Source of the DNA: Eledone cirrhosa
Taxonomy: Eukaryota
Direction: 5' to 3'
Length of the DNA stretch: 64,000 nt
NCBI GenBank assembly: GCA_964016885.1
Contig: OZ024743.1
Coordinates: forward strand, 184,326,001 to 184,390,000
Every line of letters starts with the position of its first letter. Position 1 is the stretch's first letter. Made by a program: the position numbers and the translations under genes. Shown here in pieces: positions 3,627 through 60,115 of the stretch. Under the pieces are notes generated by a model that was not told the origin of the DNA, did no database searches, and saw nothing but the letters and a program-made list of their open reading frames with translations.

Positions 3627-3690
<64 letters not shown>

Positions 3691-3757
3691 CGTAAAATAA
3701 GAAAATATCTTTTAAAAAAATTTTTTAAAAATTTTTTACTTACTTACTTAAATTTTC

Positions 3758-3839
3758 ACTCCAACTAATTAGTTTCTGCAATGGGATAAAGACAGTTACA
3801 TAATCCAACTGTCGAGAATTCATTGCGTCATCAGGGAGT
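3758..3839 (-). ncRNA. Type I hammerhead ribozyme (family B)
   Basis: Reverse complement of the 4805-4886 motif. Confidence 0.82.
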
Positions 3840-4317
3840 CTATTCTCAGCTGAGCCTCCAGGCAATGCGCGGACACTGGCGGCTCATATAAAAATAATAA
3901 TAATAATTCGGTAGAAAGAACAGCTAGGCGAGGACTGGATTCTATGTACTGAAATTCTCACTGCTTCCAGTCAAATGGCCGATTCTAAAGAATCAATCAC
4001 GTGACATAGAGGCTAGTTAGAAGGAATGGGATGGTAAGATGACTGACGCCTACTAACACCCCAAAAAAAATTTTGAAGTGGTTTTGGCAGGTTTGCTCGA
4101 CAAATCAGTGATTTGGAGATAAATATAGATAATTTAATATATCAACTAACATAGGCGCACAGATGCACGTCCATGCCAGCAAATACACAGGTTATGTCAT
4201 AGTACCTAGGTGGTTCAATGCAGGAGGGTGCAGAACAATAATATAAAAGACGTAAAATAAGAAAATATCTTTTAAAAAAATTTTTTAAAAATTTTTTACT
4301 TACTTACTTAAATTTTC

Positions 4318-4399
4318 ACTCCAACTAATTAGTTTCTGCAATGGGATAAAGACAGTTACATAATCCAACTGTCGAGAATTCATTGCGTCATCAGGGAGT
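4318..4399 (-). ncRNA. Type I hammerhead ribozyme (family B)
   Basis: Reverse complement of the 4805-4886 motif. Confidence 0.82.
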
Positions 4400-4804
4400 C
4401 TATTCTCAGCTGAGCCTCCAGGCAATGCGCGGACACTGGCGGCTCATATAAAAATAATAATAATAATTCGGTAGAAAGAACAGCTAGGCGAGGACTGGAT
4501 TCTATGTACTGAAATTCTCACTGCTTCCAGTCAAATGGCCGATTCTAAAGAATCAATCACGTGACATAGAGGCTAGTTAGAAGGAATGGGATGGTAAGAT
4601 GACTGACGCCTACTAACACCCCAAAACAAATTTTGAAGTGGTTTTGGCAGGTTTGCTCGACAAATCAGTGATTTGGAGATAAATATAGATAATTTAATAT
4701 AGAATCCAGTCCTCGCCTAGCTGTTCTTTCTACCGAATTATTATTATTATTTTTATATGAGCCGCCAGTGTCCGCGCATTGCCTGGAGGCTCAGCTGAGA
4801 ATAG

Positions 4805-4886
4805 ACTCCCTGATGACGCAATGAATTCTCGACAGTTGGATTATGTAACTGTCTTTATCCCATTGCAGAAACTAATTAGTTGGAGT
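4805..4886 (+). ncRNA. Type I hammerhead ribozyme (family B)
   Basis: actcc-CTGATGA-c gcaatg..gacagtt..aactgtc..cattgc a-GAAA-ctaattag-TT-ggagt; stem I actcc/ggagt; palindromic stem III aactaattagtt; GUU cleavage triplet. Confidence 0.85.
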
Positions 4887-5063
4887 GAAAATTTAAGTAA
4901 GTAAGTAAAAAATTTTTTTAAAAGATATTTTCTTATTTTACGTCTTTTATATTATTGTTCTGCACCCTCCTGCATTGAACCACCTAGGTACTATGACATA
5001 ACCTGTGTATTTGCTGGCATGGACGTGCATCTGTGCGCCTATGTTAGTTGATATATTAAATTA

Positions 5064-5149
<86 letters not shown>

Positions 5150-5155
5150 TATATG

Positions 5156-5197
<42 letters not shown>

Positions 5198-5334
5198 TCA
5201 TTTTGTTTCAATTTATCGTTTTCGGTATGCCTAACCGATTTAACTCACTCAATATGCAAATTAGGCTGCTCAGCCGTTAATTTTCATAAGGAAAGTATAT
5301 ACTTTCGAACGTTCAACTATCTGGCAGATGGGTA

Positions 5335-5379
5335 AACGGTGCTGATGATAGCTAACAAGCTTGAAACTAGTACATCGTT
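5335..5379 (+). ncRNA. Minimal type I hammerhead ribozyme (family A, unit 1)
   Basis: aacggtg-CTGATGA-t agct aaca agct t-GAAA-c ta g-TA-catcgtt; GUA triplet, predicted cut after 5372; palindromic mini stem III actagt. Confidence 0.9.
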
Positions 5380-5533
5380 CCTGTGTCAGTGTTGAACAAA
5401 AAGGTGACGTGGTTGCCTTAACACCGTATGGCATAAATTCAGGCTGTTCAGTTTGTTTACAAACGAACAAAGCGACGTTAGCGCCGCTAAACTGATACGT
5501 GCATATATGTATGTGTACCTGTATGCATATGTA

Positions 5534-5583
<50 letters not shown>

Positions 5584-5820
5584 CATGCTACTGTACGTCT
5601 GTATACATATATGTATGTACGTATACATGCATACTTACATTTAAGTAAGTGCCATACTAAGAGTGAGAAATGAAATTTCGTTTTCATTTTGTTTCAATTT
5701 ATCGTTTTCGGTATGCCTAACCGATTTAACTCACTCAATATGCAAATTAGGCTGCTCAGCCGTTAATTTTCATAAGGAAAGTATATACTTTCGAACGTTC
5801 AACTATCTGGCAGATGGGTA

Positions 5821-5865
5821 AACGGTGCTGATGATAGCTAACAAGCTTGAAACTAGTACATCGTT
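5821..5865 (+). ncRNA. Minimal type I hammerhead ribozyme (family A, unit 2)
   Basis: Same motif as 5335-5379. Confidence 0.9.
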
Positions 5866-6019
5866 CCTGTGTCAGTGTTGAACAAAAAGGTGACGTGGTT
5901 GCCTTAACACCGTATGGCATAAATTCAGGCTGTTCAGTTTGTTTACAAACGAACAAAGCGACGTTAGCGCCGCTAAACTGATACGTGCATATATGTATGT
6001 GTACCTGTATGCATATGTA

Positions 6020-6069
<50 letters not shown>

Positions 6070-6306
6070 CATGCTACTGTACGTCTGTATACATATATGT
6101 ATGTACGTATACATGCATACTTACATTTAAGTAAGTGCCATACTAAGAGTGAGAAATGAAATTTCGTTTTCATTTTGTTTCAATTTATCGTTTTCGGTAT
6201 GCCTAACCGATTTAACTCACTCAATATGCAAATTAGGCTGCTCAGCCGTTAATTTTCATAAGGAAAGTATATACTTTCGAACGTTCAACTATCTGGCAGA
6301 TGGGTA

Positions 6307-6351
6307 AACGGTGCTGATGATAGCTAACAAGCTTGAAACTAGTACATCGTT
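6307..6351 (+). ncRNA. Minimal type I hammerhead ribozyme (family A, unit 3)
   Basis: Same motif as 5335-5379. Confidence 0.9.
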
Positions 6352-6505
6352 CCTGTGTCAGTGTTGAACAAAAAGGTGACGTGGTTGCCTTAACACCGTA
6401 TGGCATAAATTCAGGCTGTTCAGTTTGTTTACAAACGAACAAAGCGACGTTAGCGCCGCTAAACTGATACGTGCATATATGTATGTGTACCTGTATGCAT
6501 ATGTA

Positions 6506-6549
<44 letters not shown>

Positions 6550-6786
6550 CATGCTACTGTACGTCTGTATACATATATGTATGTACGTATACATGCATAC
6601 TTACATTTAAGTAAGTGCCATACTAAGAGTGAGAAATGAAATTTCGTTTTCATTTTGTTTCAATTTATCGTTTTCGGTATGCCTAACCGATTTAACTCAC
6701 TCAATATGCAAATTAGGCTGCTCAGCCGTTAATTTTCATAAGGAAAGTATATACTTTCGAACGTTCAACTATCTGGCAGATGGGTA

Positions 6787-6831
6787 AACGGTGCTGATGA
6801 TAGCTAACAAGCTTGAAACTAGTACATCGTT
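6787..6831 (+). ncRNA. Minimal type I hammerhead ribozyme (family A, unit 4)
   Basis: Same motif as 5335-5379. Confidence 0.9.
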
Positions 6832-6985
6832 CCTGTGTCAGTGTTGAACAAAAAGGTGACGTGGTTGCCTTAACACCGTATGGCATAAATTCAGGCTGTT
6901 CAGTTTGTTTACAAACGAACAAAGCGACGTTAGCGCCGCTAAACTGATACGTGCATATATGTATGTGTACCTGTATGCATATGTA

Positions 6986-7031
<46 letters not shown>

Positions 7032-7268
7032 CATGCTACTGTACGTCTGTATACATATATGTATGTACGTATACATGCATACTTACATTTAAGTAAGTGC
7101 CATACTAAGAGTGAGAAATGAAATTTCGTTTTCATTTTGTTTCAATTTATCGTTTTCGGTATGCCTAACCGATTTAACTCACTCAATATGCAAATTAGGC
7201 TGCTCAGCCGTTAATTTTCATAAGGAAAGTATATACTTTCGAACGTTCAACTATCTGGCAGATGGGTA

Positions 7269-7313
7269 AACGGTGCTGATGATAGCTAACAAGCTTGAAA
7301 CTAGTACATCGTT
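7269..7313 (+). ncRNA. Minimal type I hammerhead ribozyme (family A, unit 5)
   Basis: Same motif as 5335-5379. Confidence 0.9.
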
Positions 7314-7467
7314 CCTGTGTCAGTGTTGAACAAAAAGGTGACGTGGTTGCCTTAACACCGTATGGCATAAATTCAGGCTGTTCAGTTTGTTTACAAACGA
7401 ACAAAGCGACGTTAGCGCCGCTAAACTGATACGTGCATATATGTATGTGTACCTGTATGCATATGTA

Positions 7468-7521
<54 letters not shown>

Positions 7522-7758
7522 CATGCTACTGTACGTCTGTATACATATATGTATGTACGTATACATGCATACTTACATTTAAGTAAGTGCCATACTAAGA
7601 GTGAGAAATGAAATTTCGTTTTCATTTTGTTTCAATTTATCGTTTTCGGTATGCCTAACCGATTTAACTCACTCAATATGCAAATTAGGCTGCTCAGCCG
7701 TTAATTTTCATAAGGAAAGTATATACTTTCGAACGTTCAACTATCTGGCAGATGGGTA

Positions 7759-7803
7759 AACGGTGCTGATGATAGCTAACAAGCTTGAAACTAGTACATC
7801 GTT
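7759..7803 (+). ncRNA. Minimal type I hammerhead ribozyme (family A, unit 6)
   Basis: Same motif as 5335-5379. Confidence 0.9.
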
Positions 7804-7957
7804 CCTGTGTCAGTGTTGAACAAAAAGGTGACGTGGTTGCCTTAACACCGTATGGCATAAATTCAGGCTGTTCAGTTTGTTTACAAACGAACAAAGCGAC
7901 GTTAGCGCCGCTAAACTGATACGTGCATATATGTATGTGTACCTGTATGCATATGTA

Positions 7958-8001
<44 letters not shown>

Positions 8002-8238
8002 CATGCTACTGTACGTCTGTATACATATATGTATGTACGTATACATGCATACTTACATTTAAGTAAGTGCCATACTAAGAGTGAGAAATGAAATTTCGTT
8101 TTCATTTTGTTTCAATTTATCGTTTTCGGTATGCCTAACCGATTTAACTCACTCAATATGCAAATTAGGCTGCTCAGCCGTTAATTTTCATAAGGAAAGT
8201 ATATACTTTCGAACGTTCAACTATCTGGCAGATGGGTA

Positions 8239-8283
8239 AACGGTGCTGATGATAGCTAACAAGCTTGAAACTAGTACATCGTT
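8239..8283 (+). ncRNA. Minimal type I hammerhead ribozyme (family A, unit 7)
   Basis: Same motif as 5335-5379. Confidence 0.9.
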
Positions 8284-8437
8284 CCTGTGTCAGTGTTGAA
8301 CAAAAAGGTGACGTGGTTGCCTTAACACCGTATGGCATAAATTCAGGCTGTTCAGTTTGTTTACAAACGAACAAAGCGACGTTAGCGCCGCTAAACTGAT
8401 ACGTGCATATATGTATGTGTACCTGTATGCATATGTA

Positions 8438-8487
<50 letters not shown>

Positions 8488-8724
8488 CATGCTACTGTAC
8501 GTCTGTATACATATATGTATGTACGTATACATGCATACTTACATTTAAGTAAGTGCCATACTAAGAGTGAGAAATGAAATTTCGTTTTCATTTTGTTTCA
8601 ATTTATCGTTTTCGGTATGCCTAACCGATTTAACTCACTCAATATGCAAATTAGGCTGCTCAGCCGTTAATTTTCATAAGGAAAGTATATACTTTCGAAC
8701 GTTCAACTATCTGGCAGATGGGTA

Positions 8725-8769
8725 AACGGTGCTGATGATAGCTAACAAGCTTGAAACTAGTACATCGTT
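8725..8769 (+). ncRNA. Minimal type I hammerhead ribozyme (family A, unit 8)
   Basis: Same motif as 5335-5379. Confidence 0.9.
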
Positions 8770-8923
8770 CCTGTGTCAGTGTTGAACAAAAAGGTGACGT
8801 GGTTGCCTTAACACCGTATGGCATAAATTCAGGCTGTTCAGTTTGTTTACAAACGAACAAAGCGACGTTAGCGCCGCTAAACTGATACGTGCATATATGT
8901 ATGTGTACCTGTATGCATATGTA

Positions 8924-8969
<46 letters not shown>

Positions 8970-9082
8970 CATGCTACTGTACGTCTGTATACATATATGT
9001 ATGTACGTATACATGCATACTTACATTTAAGTAAGTGCCATACTAAGAGTGAGAAATGAAATTTCGTTTTCATTTTGTTTCA

Positions 9083-9120
<38 letters not shown>

Positions 9121-9204: not shown

Positions 9205-12200
9205 TCAGGATTTGGGCACCATGGCCCATTCGAGAAGAGAATTACTGTTTGCGGCGACATATCCGGGTGTGGGTGGTTTGTCCGGGATTACTTGGAGGAA
9301 TTTGTCCAAAGACTTCTTGAATTTTGTGTGGTCAGTTTCTGTTTTGACGTGTCCTGGTGTGATGTTGAAGAGAGCAGGGCCGATTGAGGTGAAATAATTG
9401 TGCCGTATTGTTGTTATGAGTTGCGATTTAGATTTTTGTATGGGACGGATAGCACGGGGCCCAAGCCTTGGGTGTATCTTGAAGGCGATGCCAACATCAT
9501 TTGGGCAGTGATGATGGAACATTTTCCACATCATGCAGATAATATAACGCTCACCGCGACGTTGGAGTGAGTAAAGTTTCAGGTTTTCTAGTCGACCCCA
9601 GTAGTCAAGGTCTGACATGCCATCTATCTTTTTCGTGATTGCCCTTTGAGGAGCTTCAAGTTTCATGATACTTTGTTTCGTGTGGGGAGACCACAGTGGA
9701 CAACAGTATTCAAGGTGTGGTCGGGCAAAAGTAGAGAAGAGAAGGATAATGGTGTGGGAATCTCTCGACTGGAAGGTTCTGAGGATCCAGGGACACATTC
9801 TGCGGGCCATGTCAACTTTGCTGCTTATATGCGTGGCCCAGCTTATGTTGCTGTCCACGGTTACTCCCAAGTCTCTGGTGTTGTTAGATGCCACGAGAGT
9901 TTCCCCGGAGGGAAGGGAGTACGGGAGTTTCAGAGCATCCTCTTTTCCAAAGTGGATCAGTTCGAATTTGTCTTCATTCAGTAACATGTTGTTCTTTTCC
10001 GCCCATTGGGTAACAGCCAGTAAGTCTGACTGAAAGCTTATCCGGTCATCCACGCCATTGATGACCTTTTGGAGCTTGGAATCATCAGCGAAAATTTTAA
10101 TGTTGCTGTGTTTGATGATGTCAGTGATGTCATTAATATAGATGATGAAGAGAAGTGGGCCCAACACAGTGCCTTGTGGGACCCCACTACTGACTTTGGC
10201 TGGGCTGGATTTGACTCCTTCAACTACAACATGTTGGGTTCTGTTTGACAGGAAGCTCTTGATCCACTGCAGCAGCTTTCCAGTGACACCAATATTGGAC
10301 AGCTTTCTCAGTAGAATGTTATGATCAACCCTGTCAAAGGCCTTGCTGAAATCAAGGTAGATAACATCAGTGTTGGAACCCTCTCCCAAGGCTCTCAAAA
10401 TGTCATCAAAGTGATGCAGTAGCTGCGTCAGGCAATCCCTTCCATTACGGAATCCATGCTGGTTGGAGTTCAGCATATTGTTACTCTCAAGGAAGTGGGT
10501 CATTCGCGATCTCACCACTCTCTCAAATACCTTAATGATATGAGAGGTGAGTGAGATTGGACGGTAATTCACGGCAAGGGATTTGTTTCCTTTTTTGAAA
10601 ACTGGGACAACAGACTGGGATAGAAGGTTTTCTGGCACATATCCAGCATCCAGTGAGTTCCGCCACAGATTGGCAAGAGGAGATGCAAGTTGGTGTTGAC
10701 ACGCCTTCAAGACACAAGCAGGGAACCTATCGGGACCTACTGCTGAATTATGCTTGATTTCCTTTATTGCCGCTAAGACAGCAGGGGCGCCAAACGTTAT
10801 GTCCGATAAGGTGTAATGGGGAGTAACATCGCCGATACAGCCCAGATCGGCCATATCAGGATTGCTGAAAACAGAGCAGTATTGTTTCTGCAGTATCTCA
10901 CCCATGGTTTTAGCATTGTCTTGAAGAGTGCCATTTTCATCAATTAGAGGGCCAACAGTAGAGCCAGTGATTTTGTGTTTTTTTGCAAATGAAAAGAACA
11001 CTTTGGGATTGAGTTTGATCTTCTCAATGGCCCAGGCCTCTTCAGCTCTTCTCTGATTGTTGATGAGAGACATTATGTTGTTTTGGAGGTTATGTTTTTT
11101 AATCTCTACTGATGAAATGGCAGTCAAGTTGATGTGTTGCTGCTGACTGTATTTCAGCTTGTTGATTTTTTTGTTCGTTCTCTTAATTTTTCTGATGAGC
11201 GTTTTTCTATTTCTAGGGATTCTGCTCTTAGATTTGTTTATAGTTCTTAATGGGGTGTGTTTAGCACATATGTTTGTAACAGTGTCCACAAATGTCTGCC
11301 AGGACTTTTTGATGTTAGTGGGTGTATGAGTGTGCGTGAAGGACCAGTCGACATGTGCAAGATCATGACTGATCGCTTCCCAGTTTGCATTGTGGAAATC
11401 CATAGCGTCAAACGGATGGACAGGAGAGATGACATTAGGTTTGTATATTGGACGGTGGAATCTCAGATCACAGAGAACCATGTCATGATCAGAGAGTAGA
11501 GTTTTCTCCACTGCAATATTGTGGATATTGTCAGTGTGATTGCTGAAAATTAAGTCTAGGACGTTTTTGTGGCACCTCGTTGGTTCGAGCACCAGTTGGG
11601 ATAGGAAGAAATCATCCATGAAGTCAAGAAGCGATTCCACTGCTTCCCTGTTAGAGGTTGAGGCAGAAGAACCTGGTGGCAGGCTGTTTGTGGACCAGTC
11701 AACTCCGGGGAGGTTGAAGTCCCCCATCATTAAGATGTTGTCAGGGTGACACTCTTGGATGAAACACTTTATGCTGTTGAGGCATTCCTTGAAGCATGGT
11801 ACAGGCGTTTGGGGTGGCCTATAGAGCCCAACTACTATTAGGTTGTTGGTTTGACTGAATACAGTGACTGCTTCACAGTATCCATTAGTGAATATGTTCA
11901 TAGCCTCTGTTGAGAAAGAATTATGGACATAAATGGCAGTTCCGCCCTTTCTTCTGCCAGCGCGATCAGCACGGATGGCTTTGAAATTTTTCACTTTCAC
12001 CTCGGCTTCCAAGTGGAGGTTACTGAGATGGGTTTCAGTGAGGGCGAAGAAAGGGATGTGGTTTGGATGGACATCAATCCAGTCCTCCAGGAATTTGATC
12101 TTCCATTTTTGAGTATTGGTGGAAGGGCTGATGCCTTGGGCGTTAAGCAAAAATGTAGAGGCGAGAGTGGATGGTTTTAATTGTTTTGGTGTGTTGTTAA

Positions 12201-12225
12201 TTTGTTTGTTTGTTAATGGCAGCAA
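9205..12225 (-). CDS. LINE ORF2: apurinic-like endonuclease + reverse transcriptase (no AUG at its 5' end; frame open from 12342)
   Basis: APE motifs LLNAQGI, ALTETHL, GDFN, LDLIF, SDH; RT motifs YRPISLTS, QHGF, DFSKAFD, GVPQGTVLGP, FADD; 1006 aa uninterrupted. Confidence 0.96.
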   Translation of the reverse strand: MLPLTNKQINNTPKQLKPSTLASTFLLNAQGISPSTNTQKWKIKFLEDWIDVHPNHIPFFALTETHLSNLHLEAEVKVKNFKAIRADRAGRRKGGTAIYVHNSFSTEAMNIFTNGYCEAVTVFSQTNNLIVVGLYRPPQTPVPCFKECLNSIKCFIQECHPDNILMMGDFNLPGVDWSTNSLPPGSSASTSNREAVESLLDFMDDFFLSQLVLEPTRCHKNVLDLIFSNHTDNIHNIAVEKTLLSDHDMVLCDLRFHRPIYKPNVISPVHPFDAMDFHNANWEAISHDLAHVDWSFTHTHTPTNIKKSWQTFVDTVTNICAKHTPLRTINKSKSRIPRNRKTLIRKIKRTNKKINKLKYSQQQHINLTAISSVEIKKHNLQNNIMSLINNQRRAEEAWAIEKIKLNPKVFFSFAKKHKITGSTVGPLIDENGTLQDNAKTMGEILQKQYCSVFSNPDMADLGCIGDVTPHYTLSDITFGAPAVLAAIKEIKHNSAVGPDRFPACVLKACQHQLASPLANLWRNSLDAGYVPENLLSQSVVPVFKKGNKSLAVNYRPISLTSHIIKVFERVVRSRMTHFLESNNMLNSNQHGFRNGRDCLTQLLHHFDDILRALGEGSNTDVIYLDFSKAFDRVDHNILLRKLSNIGVTGKLLQWIKSFLSNRTQHVVVEGVKSSPAKVSSGVPQGTVLGPLLFIIYINDITDIIKHSNIKIFADDSKLQKVINGVDDRISFQSDLLAVTQWAEKNNMLLNEDKFELIHFGKEDALKLPYSLPSGETLVASNNTRDLGVTVDSNISWATHISSKVDMARRMCPWILRTFQSRDSHTIILLFSTFARPHLEYCCPLWSPHTKQSIMKLEAPQRAITKKIDGMSDLDYWGRLENLKLYSLQRRGERYIICMMWKMFHHHCPNDVGIAFKIHPRLGPRAIRPIQKSKSQLITTIRHNYFTSIGPALFNITPGHVKTETDHTKFKKSLDKFLQVIPDKPPTPGYVAANSNSLLEWAMVPKS

Positions 12226-13358
12226 TGGGAGTTTGTGCAGTGGGGTGATAGTGGAGGGTGGTGCTGGGTGATAGCTCGAATGTTTTTTTCCAGTTCTTTT
12301 GCCAGATTCATTATGGCTAAAAAAGAGGAAGAGGTTTCCTGTTTAGAAGACTGTTGGTGACTGTGGTAGTGGTTATTTTTATGTAGGTTATGGTTTTTGT
12401 TTTTGCTTTTATTTTTAATTTTATTTTCATTTGTCCGACGTGTCCCCGGGAGATGGGTAAAGGGACAATCCCGGTCTAAACACAATCTGTCTCGCAGGGA
12501 AAAGCGGCAGATTTGTGGATTCCTTGTTTGAGTTATTGGTGGTTGTGTTGGTGTTAAATTAGAGTATGTATTATGGTGGTGGCTGTTTGTGGGGATAGAT
12601 CGTTTTGTCCTAGGTAAATGGGTGAATTTGCAGCCACTATCCGTACATATTCTATAGCGTAGAGAGTAGCGGCAAATGATGGGGTTTCGAGTGGGTGGGT
12701 ATGTGGGTGTGTGTGTTGTGAGAGGTGTAGATGATGGTTTGAGTAGGATTTGACGACCTTTGTGGACTGTGGGAGGGAGAGTTCTTGTTCTGGTATTAGA
12801 AGGTAAATTCCTTGAAATAGCAGTAGCCAAAGATGTTGTAGTAGTAGGCAGAGAATATGTTGGCAGTGGTGATGATTGGACTGCTGGGCCAGAGAAAGGA
12901 TGTGGCGTTTCCTGCTGTGAGACAGAGGCTACTGGGAGGTCAATAGTTTCATTTAGTAGATCGGCCATTGTTGATGAATCAAGGAGTGCTTCACACTGTT
13001 GTTGTTGTTGTCGTTGTTGTTGTTGCTGTTGTTGATGTTGTTGTTGTATCTGTTGTTGTTGTTGCCGTTGTAGCTGCTGTTGTTGTTGTTGCTGCTGCTG
13101 GACAGCATTCGAAGAAAAAACACACCGTAGTTTATCCAAATGTTTATTGATTAATTTAAAAGCAATTTCGATTTGCTTTAATTTATTTTGAATCTGTTGT
13201 TCAGATCGAGTTTTCAAAAGTTGAACTGTACGTTTAGCAATGTCGTTCAGAGATGAAGCATCTATGTCTTCTGTTTGGGTAAGGCAATGCCATGTGTTTA
13301 TTAGAATGTCGATTTCATTATCAGACCAGTTCTGTTTGGATTTTTGCTGGTTAGCCAT
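12213..13358 (-). CDS. LINE ORF1 (~381 aa from first ATG): Myb/SANT-like N-terminus, polyQ, two CCCH zinc fingers
   Basis: NWSDNEIDILINTW; Q-tract; CRYSLRYRICTDSGCKFTH and CRFSLRDRLCLDRDCPFTH; lies upstream of and overlaps ORF2. Confidence 0.85.
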   Translation of the reverse strand: MANQQKSKQNWSDNEIDILINTWHCLTQTEDIDASSLNDIAKRTVQLLKTRSEQQIQNKLKQIEIAFKLINKHLDKLRCVFSSNAVQQQQQQQQQLQRQQQQQIQQQHQQQQQQQRQQQQQCEALLDSSTMADLLNETIDLPVASVSQQETPHPFSGPAVQSSPLPTYSLPTTTTSLATAISRNLPSNTRTRTLPPTVHKGRQILLKPSSTPLTTHTPTYPPTRNPIICRYSLRYRICTDSGCKFTHLPRTKRSIPTNSHHHNTYSNLTPTQPPITQTRNPQICRFSLRDRLCLDRDCPFTHLPGTRRTNENKIKNKSKNKNHNLHKNNHYHSHQQSSKQETSSSFLAIMNLAKELEKNIRAITQHHPPLSPHCTNSHCCH

Positions 13359-17998: not shown

Positions 17999-18872
<874 letters not shown>

Positions 18873-39808: not shown

Positions 39809-41815
39809 TTAATTAGGTTTATAATATTTAAATGTTTTTTTTAGTTTATGATTACACGATATAATTAATTCCTGTCGTTTATTTAATAAGATATCCTTAG
39901 ACTTCATTATTTCAAATAGTTCTTGGGAACATAATCTACATTCATTTCTATTATTTTGATAAGGGGTGGCTCTTTTGAGCACACTCCAGGTCAAATCATA
40001 TTCTATATTCTTATTTTTATAACTATTGATTTTTTCTGCTAGAGATGTTGTATTAGCCAGTGCGGCATTTTTAAAACTATGCTTGTGGGTATTAAACCTT
40101 GTCTTAAAATTGTTAGAGGTAGCTCCTATATATGAGCAAATAGAATCTTTAGTTTTAACATTACATTTATAGACTATGTTGTTAACAAGACAATTCCCTT
40201 TTAATGGGCAGTTTGCTTTGTTTCTACAGTTACATCCTTTCGTTAATTCTGTATTTGAGGAGATATTATGGTTAATTTGATGTACTGGTGGTATACTTAT
40301 GGTTTTCTTACATTTATATGCATTATATGCACTTATATTTTGTTTTATGTTATTTGTTGTAGAGTATGAGAATTTAACTGTAGACCTATTTAAGATTTGA
40401 TGGTATTTGTGGTTTGGCGGGAAGTTTTTCTCAAGGATATAAAAAAATTTTTTAGCAATATTATCCTTAACTTGTAAATTAAAAGGAGCATTATACCAAG
40501 TAACCCGTCTATTACGGTTTCTATGTTGTTTATTATTTTTATTATTTTTATAGGTTGTATCGTGATTTTTACTAGGAGGATTAATGTTAATGATCTCACC
40601 ACAACTATTTTTAGTTATATTTGTAGATTTAGGTGTTTTATCCTTTTTATTAGGAGTTTTATTATTAATATTTATTAGAGTTGTATGATGAGTAGTTTTT
40701 TGAGAGTTACTATACTTTATATTAGAAGATTTGGTATTTTGGGGTATAGTGTGGGTGGCATTTAGGTGTATACTTTTCATTTGGTGTTTGTTGGTAATAT
40801 TATGTTGTATGCTTTCAGTATTTTTAGTAGAAGGTATATACTCTAATCTATTTTTGTGGCCACTTCTATCTAGAGCTTCGTTATAGAAGGTCGCATTTTT
40901 ATCAAATACATCTTGGTTAGAAGAAAGGTTAGAAATTCTAAGTGATATATTATATGCAAGGTTTTTAAGGATAGATTTAGGGTGATTAGATTGTGAGTGT
41001 ATGTAATGTAAGTTTTGGTTAGGTTTATGGTAAGGTTGGTAGATACCCGTAGCTAAATCTAAAGTTATATCTAGGAAATTTACTACTTTACTTGTTTTTT
41101 CAAAAGTAATATTAAGATTATAATAGTCTTTAAGGAAAGTTCTAATATGTTTTTTGTTTTTTTCAATTTCTGAAAGGCTAAGGTTGTTAGAAAGAAGAAG
41201 ACAGTCATCACGATATAAACCACCTTTGAGGTGGGGAAAAGAGGCATTTATGTTGAAAAGGAGAAAGAGGCCCACAAGATCAGTAATTTGGGCGGAATCG
41301 CTTGAACCCATAGTAATATCAAAAAGATTACTATATGTGTTTCTGGTCCAGTATTCATTCTGAAATTCAATAAGTGTTAGTCTAGCATGTGTAATAATAT
41401 TAATGTCATCCAAAGTTAAGTTAGATCTATTTTTAGCAAATATCAATGCTTTGTTCAGGAGTATAGGTGATATAGAAGAATAGTAATTATCTATATCAAA
41501 TTGTAGGAAAGAAGCAGAAGATTTACACCTAATATTTTTAAACCAGTTAATTACCTGGGAGGTGTTTTCCCAGAGTGGTAAAATAACGTGTTTTCTTATT
41601 TGTGGGATGACTCTATCTAAAATTTTTTTGCTAATTATTCCAATATCTGATTTGGAGGGACATATAAGTCTAATAGAAGGATTTGAGTTAAAGTTAGATT
41701 TGTGATCTTTCAGGTTGAAGTGTGGTCTTTTCAATGCCAAAGGTTCAGTTCTATCTTCAATGTTTAGTTTTTTTACTATGTTGTGTGTTTTGTTGTTGAT
41801 GTTGGTGAGTGACAC
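39809..41815 (-). CDS. PLE reverse transcriptase + C-terminal GIY-YIG endonuclease, 5'-truncated
   Basis: KDHK..NP.IRLI, FLQFDIDNYYSSI, FDITMGS, GLYRDD, NFLDITL, CNC..CPL..C linker, IVYKC..SYIGAT..FKTR..H, CRLC; 668 aa uninterrupted. Confidence 0.93.
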   Translation of the reverse strand: MSLTNINNKTHNIVKKLNIEDRTEPLALKRPHFNLKDHKSNFNSNPSIRLICPSKSDIGIISKKILDRVIPQIRKHVILPLWENTSQVINWFKNIRCKSSASFLQFDIDNYYSSISPILLNKALIFAKNRSNLTLDDINIITHARLTLIEFQNEYWTRNTYSNLFDITMGSSDSAQITDLVGLFLLFNINASFPHLKGGLYRDDCLLLSNNLSLSEIEKNKKHIRTFLKDYYNLNITFEKTSKVVNFLDITLDLATGIYQPYHKPNQNLHYIHSQSNHPKSILKNLAYNISLRISNLSSNQDVFDKNATFYNEALDRSGHKNRLEYIPSTKNTESIQHNITNKHQMKSIHLNATHTIPQNTKSSNIKYSNSQKTTHHTTLININNKTPNKKDKTPKSTNITKNSCGEIININPPSKNHDTTYKNNKNNKQHRNRNRRVTWYNAPFNLQVKDNIAKKFFYILEKNFPPNHKYHQILNRSTVKFSYSTTNNIKQNISAYNAYKCKKTISIPPVHQINHNISSNTELTKGCNCRNKANCPLKGNCLVNNIVYKCNVKTKDSICSYIGATSNNFKTRFNTHKHSFKNAALANTTSLAEKINSYKNKNIEYDLTWSVLKRATPYQNNRNECRLCSQELFEIMKSKDILLNKRQELIISCNHKLKKTFKYYKPN

Positions 41816-41850
41816 ATTATTAGATTTTTTATAATTTTTTCTGAGTTCTT

Positions 41851-43317
41851 GTGGGCCTCTTTCTCCTTTTCAACATAAATGCCTCTTTTCCCCACCTCAA
41901 AGGTGGTTTATATCGTGATGACTGTCTTCTTCTTTCTAACAACCTTAGCCTTTCAGAAATTGAAAAAAACAAAAAACATATTAGAACTTTCCTTAAAGAC
42001 TATTATAATCTTAATATTACTTTTGAAAAAACAAGTAAAGTAGTAAATTTCCTAGATATAACTTTAGATTTAGCTACGGGTATCTACCAACCTTACCATA
42101 AACCTAACCAAAACTTACATTACATACACTCACAATCTAATCACCCTAAATCTATCCTTAAAAACCTTGCATATAATATATCACTTAGAATTTCTAACCT
42201 TTCTTCTAACCAAGATGTATTTGATAAAAATGCGACCTTCTATAACGAAGCTCTAGATAGAAGTGGCCACAAAAATAGATTAGAGTATATACCTTCTACT
42301 AAAAATACTGAAAGCATACAACATAATATTACCAACAAACACCAAATGAAAAGTATACACCTAAATGCCACCCACACTATACCCCAAAATACCAAATCTT
42401 CTAATATAAAGTATAGTAACTCTCAAAAAACTACTCATCATACAACTCTAATAAATATTAATAATAAAACTCCTAATAAAAAGGATAAAACACCTAAATC
42501 TACAAATATAACTAAAAATAGTTGTGGTGAGATCATTAACATTAATCCTCCTAGTAAAAATCACGATACAACCTATAAAAATAATAAAAATAATAAACAA
42601 CATAGAAACCGTAATAGACGGGTTACTTGGTATAATGCTCCTTTTAATTTACAAGTTAAGGATAATATTGCTAAAAAATTTTTTTATATCCTTGAGAAAA
42701 ACTTCCCGCCAAACCACAAATACCATCAAATCTTAAATAGGTCTACAGTTAAATTCTCATACTCTACAACAAATAACATAAAACAAAATATAAGTGCATA
42801 TAATGCATATAAATGTAAGAAAACCATAAGTATACCACCAGTACATCAAATTAACCATAATATCTCCTCAAATACAGAATTAACGAAAGGATGTAACTGT
42901 AGAAACAAAGCAAACTGCCCATTAAAAGGGAATTGTCTTGTTAACAACATAGTCTATAAATGTAATGTTAAAACTAAAGATTCTATTTGCTCATATATAG
43001 GAGCTACCTCTAACAATTTTAAGACAAGGTTTAATACCCACAAGCATAGTTTTAAAAATGCCGCACTGGCTAATACAACATCTCTAGCAGAAAAAATCAA
43101 TAGTTATAAAAATAAGAATATAGAATATGATTTGACCTGGAGTGTGCTCAAAAGAGCCACCCCTTATCAAAATAATAGAAATGAATGTAGATTATGTTCC
43201 CAAGAACTATTTGAAATAATGAAGTCTAAGGATATCTTATTAAATAAACGACAGGAATTAATTATATCGTGTAATCATAAACTAAAAAAAACATTTAAAT
43301 ATTATAAACCTAATTAA
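41851..43317 (+). CDS. Inverted, more truncated copy of the same PLE ORF (RT C-terminal half + GIY-YIG)
   Basis: Matches the last 488 aa of the 39809-41815 ORF. Confidence 0.9.
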   Translation: MGLFLLFNINASFPHLKGGLYRDDCLLLSNNLSLSEIEKNKKHIRTFLKDYYNLNITFEKTSKVVNFLDITLDLATGIYQPYHKPNQNLHYIHSQSNHPKSILKNLAYNISLRISNLSSNQDVFDKNATFYNEALDRSGHKNRLEYIPSTKNTESIQHNITNKHQMKSIHLNATHTIPQNTKSSNIKYSNSQKTTHHTTLININNKTPNKKDKTPKSTNITKNSCGEIININPPSKNHDTTYKNNKNNKQHRNRNRRVTWYNAPFNLQVKDNIAKKFFYILEKNFPPNHKYHQILNRSTVKFSYSTTNNIKQNISAYNAYKCKKTISIPPVHQINHNISSNTELTKGCNCRNKANCPLKGNCLVNNIVYKCNVKTKDSICSYIGATSNNFKTRFNTHKHSFKNAALANTTSLAEKINSYKNKNIEYDLTWSVLKRATPYQNNRNECRLCSQELFEIMKSKDILLNKRQELIISCNHKLKKTFKYYKPN

Positions 43318-54056: not shown

Positions 54057-54079
54057 CACTTTCTAATATATATATATAT

Positions 54080-54960
54080 ATGAACACAAAAACTGGAAAA
54101 ATATTCCCAAATGGAAATATGAACTGCAAAAGCAGCAATCTAATTTACTGCATTAAATGCCCGAATTGTGAAGAACTATATGTCGCTGAAACTGGAAATG
54201 CACGGGTGCACCGACAGCAAATCAGAGACCCAAATGTCCGTCAGATACCCCGAGTAACCATCTAACAACATGTGGTGAGAAAATATTTATAATATTTCCA
54301 TTCTACAAATTACACAGCCCAAGTGAAATCAAGAGAAAAATCAAAGAAAAGAATTTTATTGATAAATTTCAACCCAAGCTAAATGAACAATAATAATGGC
54401 GATTTACTCCTACTATGACTATGACTACGACCATGCCGACTACCACCACTAACAACAACAACAATAATAATAATAATAAAAGTGATGTTGATGGTGATGA
54501 TTACTAGAAAATGCTATTATCATCATTTCTAAAAATAGCAAAACAATTGATGCTTTGGATAGGGTCAAATAGAAGTCGTTAGACATGCTCAACCAACCGT
54601 AACGGCTAAACGCATCAGCTTTAGTAATCCAGTGAAACTACACACTGATTAGTCGAAATACAGTTTGCAAAATTTAGCATTCTGTAGCCACTTTTCACTG
54701 TATATAAGGCACAAAATGTACCCATCTCATTACAGTTGAAAATTGCAAGCTTGACTGTCACCACAAAATATGAACCTGAAGATTGCGAAAGCATGAAAGT
54801 AATTGTTCAATTAACATTTAACATTTAATATTCCACCATATTATTTCATTCTAATACCATTAGAATTTTAAAGGATTGTAAATAAAACGAGTAAATCAGA
54901 CAAAGCTGGAATTCCTTTTATTAATATAATCTTCTATACACAATTATATACAACCGTGTA
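54080..54960 (+). pseudogene. Decayed PLE 3' end (GIY-YIG) with hammerhead-like motif at 54771-54809
   Basis: NCKSSNLIYCIKCPNCEELYVAETG..HRQQIRDP; tgaac-CTGAAGA-t tgc gaaa gca t-GAAA-gtaa-TT-gttca (stem III broken). Confidence 0.75.
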
Positions 54961-55042
<82 letters not shown>

Positions 55043-55045
<3 letters not shown>

Positions 55046-56021
55046 TACTGTACGTCTGTATACATATATGTATGTACGTATACATACTTATATTTAAGTA
55101 ACAGCCGTACTAAGAATGATAAATGAAATTTCGTTTCATTTTTTCCGTTTATCGTTTTCGGTACCCCGGCCGATTAACTCAACCGATATGCAAATTAGGC
55201 TGCTCAGCCGTTAATATGCATAAGGAAAGTATATACTTTCAGACGTTCAACCATCTGGCAGTAACGTATACGTTGCTGACGATAGCTAATAAGCTTGAAA
55301 CTAATACAGCATTCCTTTGTCAGTGTTGAACAAATGAGCAACGATTGTTGCTAGACACTGTACGGCTTAATTCGGGATGTTTGTTTACAAACACACCGAG
55401 CAGTATAATAAATGTTCGGTGAATACATACGTACATATATATATGTGTGTATATGTATGTATATATATATATATACATACTACTGTATGTCTGTATACAT
55501 ATATGTATGTACGTATACATACTTATATTTAAGTAACAGCCATACTAAGAATGAGAAATGAAATTTCGTTTCATTTTTTCCATTTATCGTTTTCGGTACC
55601 CCGGCCTATTAACTCAACCGATATGCAAATTAGGCTGCTCAGCCGTTAATATGCATAAGGAAAGTATATACCTTCAGACGTTCAACCATCTGGCAGGAAG
55701 GTATACGTTGCTGACGATAGCTAATAAGCTTGAAACTAATACAGCATTCCTTTGTCAGTGTTGAACAAATGAGCAACGGTGGTTGCTAGACACTACGGCT
55801 TAATACGAGATGTTTGTTTACAAACACACCGAGCATTATAATAAATGTTCGGTGAATACATACGTACATATATATATATGTGTGCATGTATGTATATATA
55901 TATATATATATACATACTATTGTACGTCTGTATACATATATGTATGTACGTATACATACTTATATTTAAGTAACAGCCGTACTAAGAGTGAGAAATGAAA
56001 TTTCGTTTCATTTTTTTCATT

Positions 56022-56023
<2 letters not shown>
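55043..56023 (+). mobile_element. Diverged family A subfamily: ~2.2 tandem 435-nt units with HHR motifs at 55270-55312 and 55705-55747
   Basis: Shares gcaaattaggctgctcagccgttaat, ggaaagtatatac and tgtcagtgttgaac with the 486-nt unit; acgttg-CTGACGA-tagctaataagctt-GAAA-cta-ATA-cagcat. Confidence 0.88.
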
Positions 56024-56054
<31 letters not shown>

Positions 56055-58492: not shown

Positions 58493-60115
58493 TATCGTGA
58501 TGATGCATTGTTTATAATTAACTCTAGTACCAACAATGTAGAACGTAATAAGAAGAAGCTCTTATAAGTTTTTTAATAGCTACAACCTTTCAATCACGAT
58601 AGCATAGAAATGATAGAGCGGTAACTTTTTAGATTGACTTGACCACTCTTTAAACCTTGGGGCACCATAGTAGCCTTAAGTACCAATTCTTTCTTATGTA
58701 TGCCCCCAATTCTAACCACCCTAAGTCTATGATAAACTCTATAATTAAAGGGCTGTTTCTAATAGGATTTCCACACTATCTAAGACATAGGAACTTTTAA
58801 TGAACATGCGGAGTACTATAATAACGCCCTAGCAAATTCAGGTCACTCTAGTAAAATAAATTATAATAATAGTAACTTTAGAAAGTCTCCGCTTACTCTT
58901 AATAATAATAACATTATATCACATAACATGGCTATGAATGGGAGTAGCAAACTTAGTAACCGTAGAACTTATATAGGAGTATCTGAACACACCCATAAGT
59001 TATCCCACCGGACTCGTAATAACAAATATAATACCTCTAAGAGACAAGTCGAGCCCCCTGTGCGCTCACGCATTGGTGTTGGTTTGGCTGGATCTTGTTC
59101 TAGTAATGTTGCTCCTACTGATCCTATCATTGGCCTTAATCCTCTTGTGGGGATTCTGGACAACAGCGGATCTACTAGAGGTAGAAACTATAATAGGCAT
59201 AACGAAATTATGGCTGATTCTATGAATGTGGCTTCAACTATTCCCGATAGTAACCCTAGTCTCGACGACGGGACCTTTAATAGAGGTAGGGTCGATAAGA
59301 ATAAAAATAAAAATAAAAATAGAAGGCGATTGAATACTTATTTCAACCCGCCATATAATCAGGATGTATCAACTAATATCCCTAGGTCTTTCTTCACTAT
59401 CCTGGAGAAAAATTTCCCCCCTTCTCACAAATACCATGGTATTTTTAATAAAAATGTTATTAAACTCTCATTCTCTACCACCCCTAATATTAGTTCTCAT
59501 TTAGCTAGCACTAATAATAGGAAAATTAGGGATGGATTCTCCTCTCTACATACTAATAGTCTGAATGCATCGGACAATGCTTTACCACCAGAACAGTCCT
59601 TATCTAATAGAGGTCCTACGTGCAATACATCACCACTCGAGCCAACCAATAACACCCGGAAGTGCAATTGTAGAGTGAGTGCTAACTGCCCTCTAAACGA
59701 TAACTGCCTTTCTAAGAACATTGTCTACGCTTGCGAGGTTATAACTAATTCCTCTAAAAGAACATATATAGGATCTACTTCAAACACTTTTAAGACTAGG
59801 TTTAACTCTCATATCTCTAACTTCAAACATGTTAGGTTTAAGAATTCTACCTCTCTAGCGCATTATATCTGGGATCTTAAGGGAGCTTATATACCATATA
59901 GCCTTAACTGGAGTTTAGTAGCACGATCTAACCACCTTTCTGCACATAGTAAGTTTTGTAATCTCTGTATACTTGAGACACACTCTATTATTTTCTCTAG
60001 CGTACCCTTACTGAATAGAAAGTCTGAGATATTCTCTTCTTGCCCCCATGCAATTTCTAATTCTTACTTTTATTATAAACCCAAATGTTCTAGTAGTACA
60101 AATCGTACCCATTAG
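58493..60115 (+). pseudogene. PLE RT remnant (decayed) + linker/GIY-YIG (open 58928-60115)
   Basis: tat cgt gat gat = YRDD at 58493; YFNPPYN..NFPPSHKY..CNC..CPL..IVYAC..TYIGSTSNTFKTRF..CNLC. Confidence 0.88.

What the first reader, a model, noticed from the sequence alone, without database searches (positions are those of the whole stretch)
5198..9088. Eight-unit hammerhead-ribozyme tandem array: candidate non-LTR retrozyme / circular RNA system
Seen: eight head-to-tail 480-490-nt non-coding units, identical as far as I can read except for an internal (TA)n. Each has a complete minimal type I HHR (CUGAUGA, GAAA, GUA triplet, palindromic ACUAGU stem III) plus further hairpins (gaaagtatatactttc, gaaatgaaatttcgtttt). 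Established: metazoan non-LTR retrozymes are tandem HHR repeats whose transcripts self-cleave to monomers and circles; minimal HHRs with palindromic stem III act as dimers; PLE RTs are the proposed mobilisers. Inference: this array is a very recent rolling-circle-type retro-insertion of a ~486-nt circular RNA, with a monomer at the long end for such elements. I cannot tell whether this family has been described.
Basis: partly seen in the sequence, partly recalled or inferred. Interest (0 to 1): 0.92.

Follow-up and report, generated by a model that had tools for sequence, protein, structure and literature searches.

The report
Ribozyme repeat hitchhiking on Penelope retrotransposons
The eight-unit array is one of about 25,000 hammerhead-bearing copies of a non-coding repeat family whose insertions end at two fixed sites inside TA microsatellites and carry identical units on two outward-facing arms, which likely records a Penelope-type enzyme copying one small, probably circular, RNA round and round.

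Summary
Confirmed: eight 480-490-bp units, identical outside a (TA)15-20 tract, each with a type I hammerhead (predicted cut after 5372). It is a non-LTR retrozyme, a known kind: 8,299 exact copies of this hammerhead and 25,066 family-wide in a 3-Gb animal genome, with covarying stems across three subfamilies. The added value is the insertion anatomy. 866 insertions end at one fixed site (alpha) fused to (TA)n; 51 of 71 fully held ones have a second, inverted arm ending at a site about 60 nt upstream (beta). This is the Penelope-like-element (PLE) 'tail' signature of two internal priming sites. Both arms share one haplotype (32 of 32); 0 of 54 multi-unit arrays are mixed; arm lengths are independent and run through the ribozyme cut. 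So arrays were likely made at insertion from one monomer lineage, probably a circle, not by later local amplification. One array has a 7-nt loss exactly at the cut in all five units, a possible ligation scar. Not shown: expression, cleavage, circles, or which PLE helps (Hydra-type is one candidate). The scan saw PLE-type ends before on a ribozyme-free repeat in another genome.

The parts
5199..9088 (+). Retrozyme insertion: 8 full units plus the first 15-18 nt of a ninth; single-arm (non-inverted) type
5329..5383 (+). Type I hammerhead of unit 1 (core CUGAUGA 5342-5348, stem II 5349-5362, GAAA 5363-5366, palindrome 5366-5371, predicted cut after 5372); repeated with cores at 5828, 6314, 6794, 7276, 7766, 8246, 8732
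5373..5858 (+). Predicted 486-nt monomer between two cuts (inferred circle); 69% paired as a circle, -164 kcal/mol
5502..5630 (+). Internal TA/TG/CA microsatellite block with (TA)18 at about 5544-5579; predicted long hairpin; its length and pattern mark each array
9015..9027 (+). Site beta (in the last unit; 5629-5641 in unit 1): where inverted arms of other insertions end; not used as an end in this array
9028..9088 (+). 'Tail' of about 60 nt between beta and alpha, with a hairpin; ends at site alpha (9085, up to 9088 by TA microhomology), the fixed 3' end
5051..5198 (.). Left (TA)n target tract; 5' truncation junction
9086..9119 (.). Right (TA)17 target tract fused to alpha
55044..56024 (+). 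Older 435-bp subfamily array (about 2.3 units, 76.6% identical), same alpha end; both hammerheads (cores 55276, 55711) have lost the stem III palindrome (ACUAAU)
18117..18856 (+). Older copy of the same family (91-95%), interrupted by another element at about 18280-18726, ending at alpha in (TA)n
39809..43317 (.). Hydra-type PLE ORF (39809-41869, minus) with inverted partial copy (41845-43317, plus): DKT, CxCX5C, C-terminal GIY-YIG; same clade as one candidate helper, not shown to be the helper

Best explanation
This is a non-coding hammerhead retrozyme present in about 25,000 copies whose insertions end at two fixed sites in (TA)n and carry haplotype-identical units on both arms; its tandem transcripts likely self-cleave (as dimers) to a 460-490-nt monomer that is likely ligated into a circle, and a Penelope-like reverse transcriptase/endonuclease likely inserts it in trans. 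Mechanism, step by step: (1) inferred: arrays are transcribed, neighbouring hammerheads pair their palindromic stem III and cut after GUA; (2) inferred: a host ligase closes the monomer; (3) inferred from shown anatomy: the PLE protein cuts both strands of a (TA)n tract and primes reverse transcription from each DNA end, one at site alpha and one at site beta about 60 nt upstream; (4) shown: copying runs through the ribozyme junction for 0-12 or more units and stops at roughly random points; (5) shown: the two arms are joined head to head, mostly through short microhomology; when only one arm is kept the result is a plain array like the one in this window; (6) shown: all units of an insertion carry one haplotype, and lineages with a broken hammerhead core did not spread, so selection likely acts on the RNA monomer.
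For: Copy numbers, reversed-pattern controls 0: 8,299 exact 45-nt hammerheads, 25,066 family-wide cores, 866 exact alpha-(TA)n junctions, 727 exact beta-(TA)n junctions. Of 80 alpha-anchored insertions on contig C1: 51 inverted with beta end, 4 inverted with other or unclear end, 16 single-arm, 9 ran off the fetched stretch. Five of five fully held arrays found without anchoring on an end have alpha on one arm and beta on the other (L032-L036). In the 65%-identical third subfamily 10 of 15 listed ends are at the homologous alpha, 4 at beta, 1 elsewhere. A 5-nt indel typed in 69 insertions (30 carriers): 0 of 54 multi-unit arrays mixed, 32 of 32 two-arm insertions concordant, chance 0.51 each, p = 4e-10. 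Microsatellite signature concordant between arms in 30 of 37 versus 0.23 expected; 19 signatures in 59 arrays. Rare variants fixed in all covering units: 8 events in 7 insertions, 5 of them on both arms; partial ones 5, single-unit ones 101. Arm lengths independent (n = 50, rho -0.06); 28 alpha and 30 beta arms pass the cut site. Hammerhead stems covary over 12 variants: 7 of 16 pairs change on both sides, 91.7% of cells paired, slid controls 32-48%. Deletions in the 12 nt before the cut: 18 units at 13 loci, none spread to a second locus as a multi-unit lineage; same-size control window outside the ribozyme: 136 units, dominated by one 1-nt deletion in many pure arrays. L105 lacks the last 7 nt before the cut in 5 of 5 tandem units. 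Two adjacent internal RT starts explain the PLE tail in vitro (PMC11167929); inverted 5'-truncated copies, tail and (TA)n targets are PLE traits (PMC8557442); retrozyme circles are shown in coral, mussel and axolotl (PMC7229834).
Against: No RNA data: none of 6 runs holding the unit is on record as RNA, and the 4 laid were contigs. 5' ends are not enriched at the cut (3 of 103, p = 0.43): expected for a circle but equally for uncut multimers. The scar evidence is 2 loci (7 nt in five units, 6 nt in one unit); chance that both abut the cut is roughly 0.1 (my estimate). Arm concordance could also arise if one source locus dominates a cell. 'Rare' is relative to 86 insertions held: one such variant is a wider sub-lineage. 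The 12 variants are related, so its shuffle count is not a probability. No PLE terminal repeat homologous to the unit was found in 1.18 Mb of held DNA. The tail (about 60 nt) is longer than the 30-40 bp in the literature, though PLEs of this genome show about 35-90 nt. In the bioRxiv study 8 of 9 predicted retrozyme dimers did not cleave in vitro, and the Anolis PLE used uncleaved RNA.
Confidence: 0.72

Rival explanations
1. Same PLE-driven two-site priming, but the template is linear: uncut multimeric transcripts of source arrays, or cut monomers copied by repeated end-to-end template jumps, with no covalent circle.
For: No RNA evidence for circles here; PLE in vitro used unprocessed RNA and the ribozyme was dispensable (PMC11167929); a junction deletion could also come from one imprecise jump; haplotype purity is preserved when pure source arrays are copied.
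Against: Pure arrays for many different variants (19 signatures in 59 arrays; 0 of 54 mixed; one deletion lineage with different but internally constant periods of 459, 463 and 471 bp) need a frequent one-monomer bottleneck; the same 7-nt loss in five consecutive units fits one closed template better than five separate jumps; core-damaged variants do not spread.
Confidence: 0.17
2. Solo PLE terminal repeats inserted as monomers and were then amplified locally into minisatellites by unequal crossover, as proposed in bioRxiv 10.64898/2026.07.22.740005.
For: Some units differ in (TA)n length within arrays; 5 partial variants exist; many insertions are one unit or less.
Against: Both inverted arms share rare variants and signatures; arrays end at fixed alpha/beta and random 5' points like single retro-insertions; units are near-identical between loci on different parts of the chromosome; no homologous pLTR found (limited sample).
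Confidence: 0.05
3. The inverted arm is a fold-back copy of the first cDNA (self-priming, as argued for PLE inversions in PMC3846280), so there is one priming event and beta is a resolution site.
For: A few junctions are near-symmetric (L090, L097, L143); both arms share the haplotype.
Against: Either arm can be much the longer (L083, L105, L112 long beta; L085, L077 long alpha) and lengths are uncorrelated; most junctions are asymmetric; two RT starts were seen directly for a PLE in vitro.
Confidence: 0.04
4. The array is an assembly expansion, or a DNA-level rolling-circle (Helitron-like) satellite with a chance ribozyme look-alike.
For: Units are identical; no long reads over this locus could be laid; Rfam hit is sub-threshold.
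Against: Thousands of dispersed copies with distinct flanks; very high depth in an independent or source short-read run and presence in runs of 3 further organism labels; covariation of the ribozyme stems; 5' truncation, inversion and tail are retroelement marks.
Confidence: 0.02

Closest known systems
Metazoan non-LTR retrozymes (Cervera and de la Pena 2020, PMC7229834), especially newt/axolotl HHR_Amex1 and Amex2 repeats
   Same: Non-coding tandem repeats, one type I hammerhead per unit, low GC; helix III of 1-2 bp with palindromic loop (as Amex1); U-U at the base of helix II (as Amex2); thousands of copies; PLEs coexist
   Different: Monomer 460-490 nt versus 170-400; internal microsatellite hairpin; strict (TA)n targets with no discernible TSD; two fixed 3' ends and inverted second arms, which the sections I read do not describe; expression and circles not shown here
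Retrozymes as non-autonomous PLE derivatives (bioRxiv 10.64898/2026.07.22.740005)
   Same: Dependence on PLEs; size within their 51-972 bp range
   Different: Their evidence is co-occurrence and pLTR homology and they suggest local amplification; here the evidence is insertion anatomy, arrays look made at insertion, and no homologous pLTR was found in the DNA held
Endonuclease-bearing PLEs: Poseidon of Anolis (PMC11167929), Hydra and Neptune clades (PMC8557442), Penelope of Adineta (PMC3846280)
   Same: Partial tandems, inverted 5'-truncated arm, tail on one end only, AT-rich or (TA)n targets, hammerhead in the repeat
   Different: No ORF; many full units per arm; tail about 60 nt; priming sites lie about 270 and 330 nt downstream of the cut rather than shortly after it
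Non-autonomous Chlamys elements such as MRC1 of Chlamydomonas (PMC8557442)
   Same: Non-autonomous, multicopy head-to-tail insertions attributed to a PLE
   Different: Those share 3' sequence with their helper and mostly lack hammerheads

Membership tests
Non-LTR retrozyme | [quoted passage not shown] | tested here: met
   8 of 8 units; many other arrays
Non-LTR retrozyme | Non-coding, no LTRs | tested here: met
   Longest ATG ORF 56 aa on the sense strand, 137 aa antisense across low-complexity sequence; no ORF of 150 aa or more listed in 5199-9088; no terminal repeats beyond the units. PBS/PPT were not searched separately
Non-LTR retrozyme | Dispersed, high copy number | tested here: met
   25,066 cores, 866 alpha ends
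Non-LTR retrozyme | Hammerhead structure conserved by covariation | tested here: met
   7 of 16 pairs change on both sides, core invariant except N7 and H17; few independent lineages
Non-LTR retrozyme | Self-cleavage of the transcript | not testable with these tools
   Indirect only: deletions abutting the cut at 2 loci
Non-LTR retrozyme | Expressed as monomeric linear and circular RNA | not testable with these tools
   No RNA holder listed; contigs only
PLE-mobilised element | Fixed 3' ends with optional tail, inverted 5'-truncated arm | tested here: met
   51 of 71 closed insertions alpha plus inverted beta; conserved in three subfamilies
PLE-mobilised element | Microsatellite/(TA)n target shared with autonomous PLEs of the genome | tested here: met
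   Hydra-type, Neptune-like and other PLEs here also end at two sites in (TA)n
PLE-mobilised element | Sequence homology to the pLTR of an autonomous helper | tested here: inconclusive
   None by profile search in 1.18 Mb of held loci; the genome was not searched exhaustively
Autonomous PLE | RT plus GIY-YIG ORF | tested here: not met
   No ORF in the unit
Minimal PLE hammerhead (min-HHR, PMC4209133) | No helix III/loop 3, long helix II (7-8 bp), poorly defined loop 1 | tested here: not met
   Helix II 4 bp, palindromic helix III present, conserved internal loop 1
Rfam hammerhead families | Gathering score | tested here: not met
   Best 18.5 bits versus 52 for RF02275; none at gathering

The most novel reading that the evidence does not exclude
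One ribozyme-made RNA circle is primed twice by a single PLE complex, at two fixed sites 60 nt apart, from both ends of a cut (TA)n tract; both polymerases roll round the same circle, so each insertion is a clonal record of one RNA molecule, including ligation scars at the ribozyme cut. The RNA has no homology to its helper and may be served by more than one PLE clade (chimeric two-armed insertions with two different PLE families). This would explain PLE inversions and tails and show the retrozyme circle as the true transposition template.
Probability: 0.35. Interest if true: 0.82.

Novelty: new member of a known kind. Interest (0 to 1): 0.6.

Why it matters
How retrozymes move, and whether their circles are the template, is stated as a hypothesis in the papers read (PMC7229834 discussion; the 2026 preprint says the mechanism remains to be elucidated and favours local amplification), and how PLE tandem/inverted structures and tails form is listed as open in PMC8557442. 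This young family gives hundreds of near-identical insertions whose ends, junctions and haplotypes can be read directly, and names exact substrates (circle, alpha, beta, (TA)n target) for the existing in vitro PLE assay. It also accounts for several megabases of this genome (8,299 exact copies of about 470 bp for the youngest subfamily alone).

Tried and rejected
Rfam at gathering level: nothing; at E-value level only microsatellite-driven miRNA hits and a weak hammerhead. Pfam did not recognise the 4 PLE ORF pieces; it typed only the LINE next to the array. RNA evidence: no RNA holder listed; laying 4 runs gave contigs only. Enrichment of 5' ends at the ribozyme cut: rejected, 3 of 103; an apparent excess at unit-map positions 245-300 (24 of 103, p = 0.04) was a post hoc window and is not used. 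Helper search: profile of three subfamilies over 1.18 Mb of held loci found only the hammerhead of an unrelated 310-bp retrozyme. Chimeric junctions: L068 (alpha arm plus 43-nt beta arm of another PLE family; clean, but a copy of that piece lies 1.3 kb away), L198/L246 (third-subfamily arm with a non-standard outer end plus Hydra-type arm ending at its own alpha), L131/L177 (alpha arm plus Hydra-type arm whose outer end is replaced by a LINE): three cases, two partners, deletion between neighbours not excluded, so no helper is named. Naiad as helper is less likely only if the host is a cephalopod, where PMC8557442 says Naiads are remnants; the host was not determined. Look-up of earlier findings by sequence gave nothing.
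Full report
Observation. The array is real: eight units of 480-490 bp from 5199 to 9070 plus 15-18 nt of a ninth, identical outside a (TA)15-20 tract, between two (TA)n tracts. Each unit has a type I hammerhead with a GUA triplet and a predicted cut after 5372. The descriptor matched 0 of 5000 shuffles of the unit, and the part without the microsatellite folds at z = -4.9. Rfam does not reach its threshold. By PMC4209133 (passages) the motif is the canonical metazoan type with a short palindromic helix III that works as a dimer; PMC7229834 (parts 2-4 of 6) describes both the palindromic tetraloop and the U-U at the base of helix II in axolotl retrozymes.

Family. The window lies in a 3.0-Gb animal assembly; the host was not determined. 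Exact-pattern counts, each with 0 hits for the reversed control: 8,299 copies of the 45-nt hammerhead and 25,066 of a family-wide core. A 435-bp subfamily (76.6% identical) has an array at 55044-56024 and 1,634 first-look candidates; a 476-bp subfamily about 65% identical has 130. Over 12 hammerhead variants chosen from these three subfamilies (the commoner ones of the 30 listed), 7 of 16 pairs change on both sides, 91.7% of cells pair, and slid controls give 32-48%; the variants are related, so this is a few independent events. Six public runs under four organism labels hold the unit; none is on record as RNA, and the four laid were contigs.

Insertion anatomy. The array's 3' end is not the ribozyme cut but a fixed site, alpha, fused to (TA)n in 866 places. 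A second fixed site, beta, about 60 nt upstream, is fused to (TA)n in 727 places for the two commonest junction forms. I fetched 80 of the first 100 alpha junctions listed on contig C1 (two were already held, the last 18 were left): 51 have an inverted arm ending at beta, 4 are inverted with another or unclear end, 16 are single-arm, and 9 ran off the stretch, 7 of them showing an inversion. Arrays found by the unit's interior show the same: alpha plus beta in 5 of 5 fully held. The third subfamily ends at the homologous alpha in 10 and beta in 4 of 15 listed ends, and most second-subfamily ends are also at these sites. Both arms point their 3' ends outwards; 37 of 60 junctions have 1-36 nt of microhomology, 3 are blunt, 20 have filler or fall in the microsatellite. 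The 5' ends are spread over the unit, 3 of 103 at the cut. Arm lengths are uncorrelated (n = 50) and 28 alpha and 30 beta arms pass the cut. This is the PLE signature: inverted 5'-truncated copy, a tail on one end and (TA)n targets (PMC8557442, passages and section 11; PMC3846280, passages), which PMC11167929 (parts 1-2 of 4) traces to two adjacent internal RT starts and cutting of both target strands. Autonomous PLE families in the held loci show the same two-ended layout with their own tails.

Template. A 5-nt indel typed in 69 of the 80 insertions (30 carriers) is never mixed in 54 multi-unit arrays and agrees between arms in 32 of 32 (p = 4e-10). The microsatellite block differs between arrays far more than within (45 arrays, p = 2e-28) and its signature agrees between arms in 30 of 37, against 0.23 by chance. 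At sites covered by three or more units, 8 rare events in 7 insertions are fixed in every unit, 5 across both arms; 5 variants are partial and 101 single-unit. One of those rare events is a wider lineage: genome-wide the same 1-nt deletion fills many pure arrays, each with its own constant period (100 of 136 matches listed). In the 12 nt before the cut only 18 units at 13 loci carry a deletion and none founded a lineage; both multi-nucleotide deletions abut the cut, one in five consecutive units. I read this as repeated copying of one monomer, with intact ribozymes needed to found new insertions. The scar is suggestive only (two loci, about 0.1 by chance), and one test window against one control is thin.

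Helper. No homologous PLE terminal repeat was found in 1.18 Mb of held DNA. A young Hydra-type family (RWR/DKT/CxCX5C motifs as defined; 99% identical copies, 3,344 candidates) is joined tail-out to retrozyme arms at two loci, and another PLE family at one; none is decisive.

Comparison and novelty. It works like, and on all testable points is, a non-LTR retrozyme; cleavage and circles are untested. That PLEs mobilise retrozymes is proposed in PMC7229834 and argued from co-occurrence and pLTR homology in bioRxiv 10.64898/2026.07.22.740005 (parts 1-3 of 5 and term search), which suggests local amplification; the present family argues against that for its own arrays. I found no description of two-armed, two-site retrozyme insertions or of this family in seven searches or in passages of the review PMC7761336; the library lacks most subscription papers, and unread supplements (PMC7229834 figures S6 and S9; the preprint's tables) may bear on this. 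The term 'twin priming' and its L1 origin are recalled, not from a call.

Verdict. New member of a known kind, with unusually clear genomic evidence on mechanism. Interest 0.6; best explanation 0.72.

Noticed in passing
L167, L168, L210-L221 (e.g. G000:C1:5544272-5546336): A second, unrelated 310-bp hammerhead retrozyme family (U-U at stem II base, palindromic ACGCGU, GUA) with 3,693 exact hammerhead copies and the same two-armed layout; arrays of 20 or more units.
   Followed up: partly
window 3680-5060: Another tandem-plus-inverted element (period 560 bp, arms 97-99.8% identical) between (TA)n tracts, directly left of the array; it has a CUGAUGA but no hammerhead by my descriptor.
   Followed up: partly
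window 39809-43317, 58784-60115; L131, L177, L180-L209: Hydra-clade PLEs (DKT, CxCX5C, no CCHH) are abundant and young here, with a hammerhead, (TA)n targets and a tail of about 90 nt; Pfam misses their ORFs.
   Followed up: partly
window 54076-54958; L222-L245: Neptune-like PLE 3' end (CX4CxxC linker, CCHH GIY-YIG) whose hammerhead also has a U-U at the stem II base; copies about 90-93% identical.
   Followed up: partly
window 49118, 49557, 53584, 20168, 2865: Further hammerhead-like motifs of other PLE families; at least eight distinct hammerhead families occur in the held loci.
   Followed up: no
L068 (about 1720-1810), L246, L177: Chimeric two-armed insertions joining a retrozyme arm to an arm of a different PLE family.
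   Followed up: partly
L094 (about 240-560): Alpha tail and a 14-nt beta arm separated by filler made of a PLE hammerhead piece and an inverted copy of the flanking DNA.
   Followed up: no
window 9205-12342 (minus): 1045-aa open LINE ORF2 (endonuclease plus RT) whose 3' end abuts the same (TA)n tract as the array; a near-identical copy also sits at a (TA)n tract in L177.
   Followed up: no
L098 and L127: Two separate insertions share the same inversion junction through a 5-nt microhomology, a possible joining hot spot.
   Followed up: no
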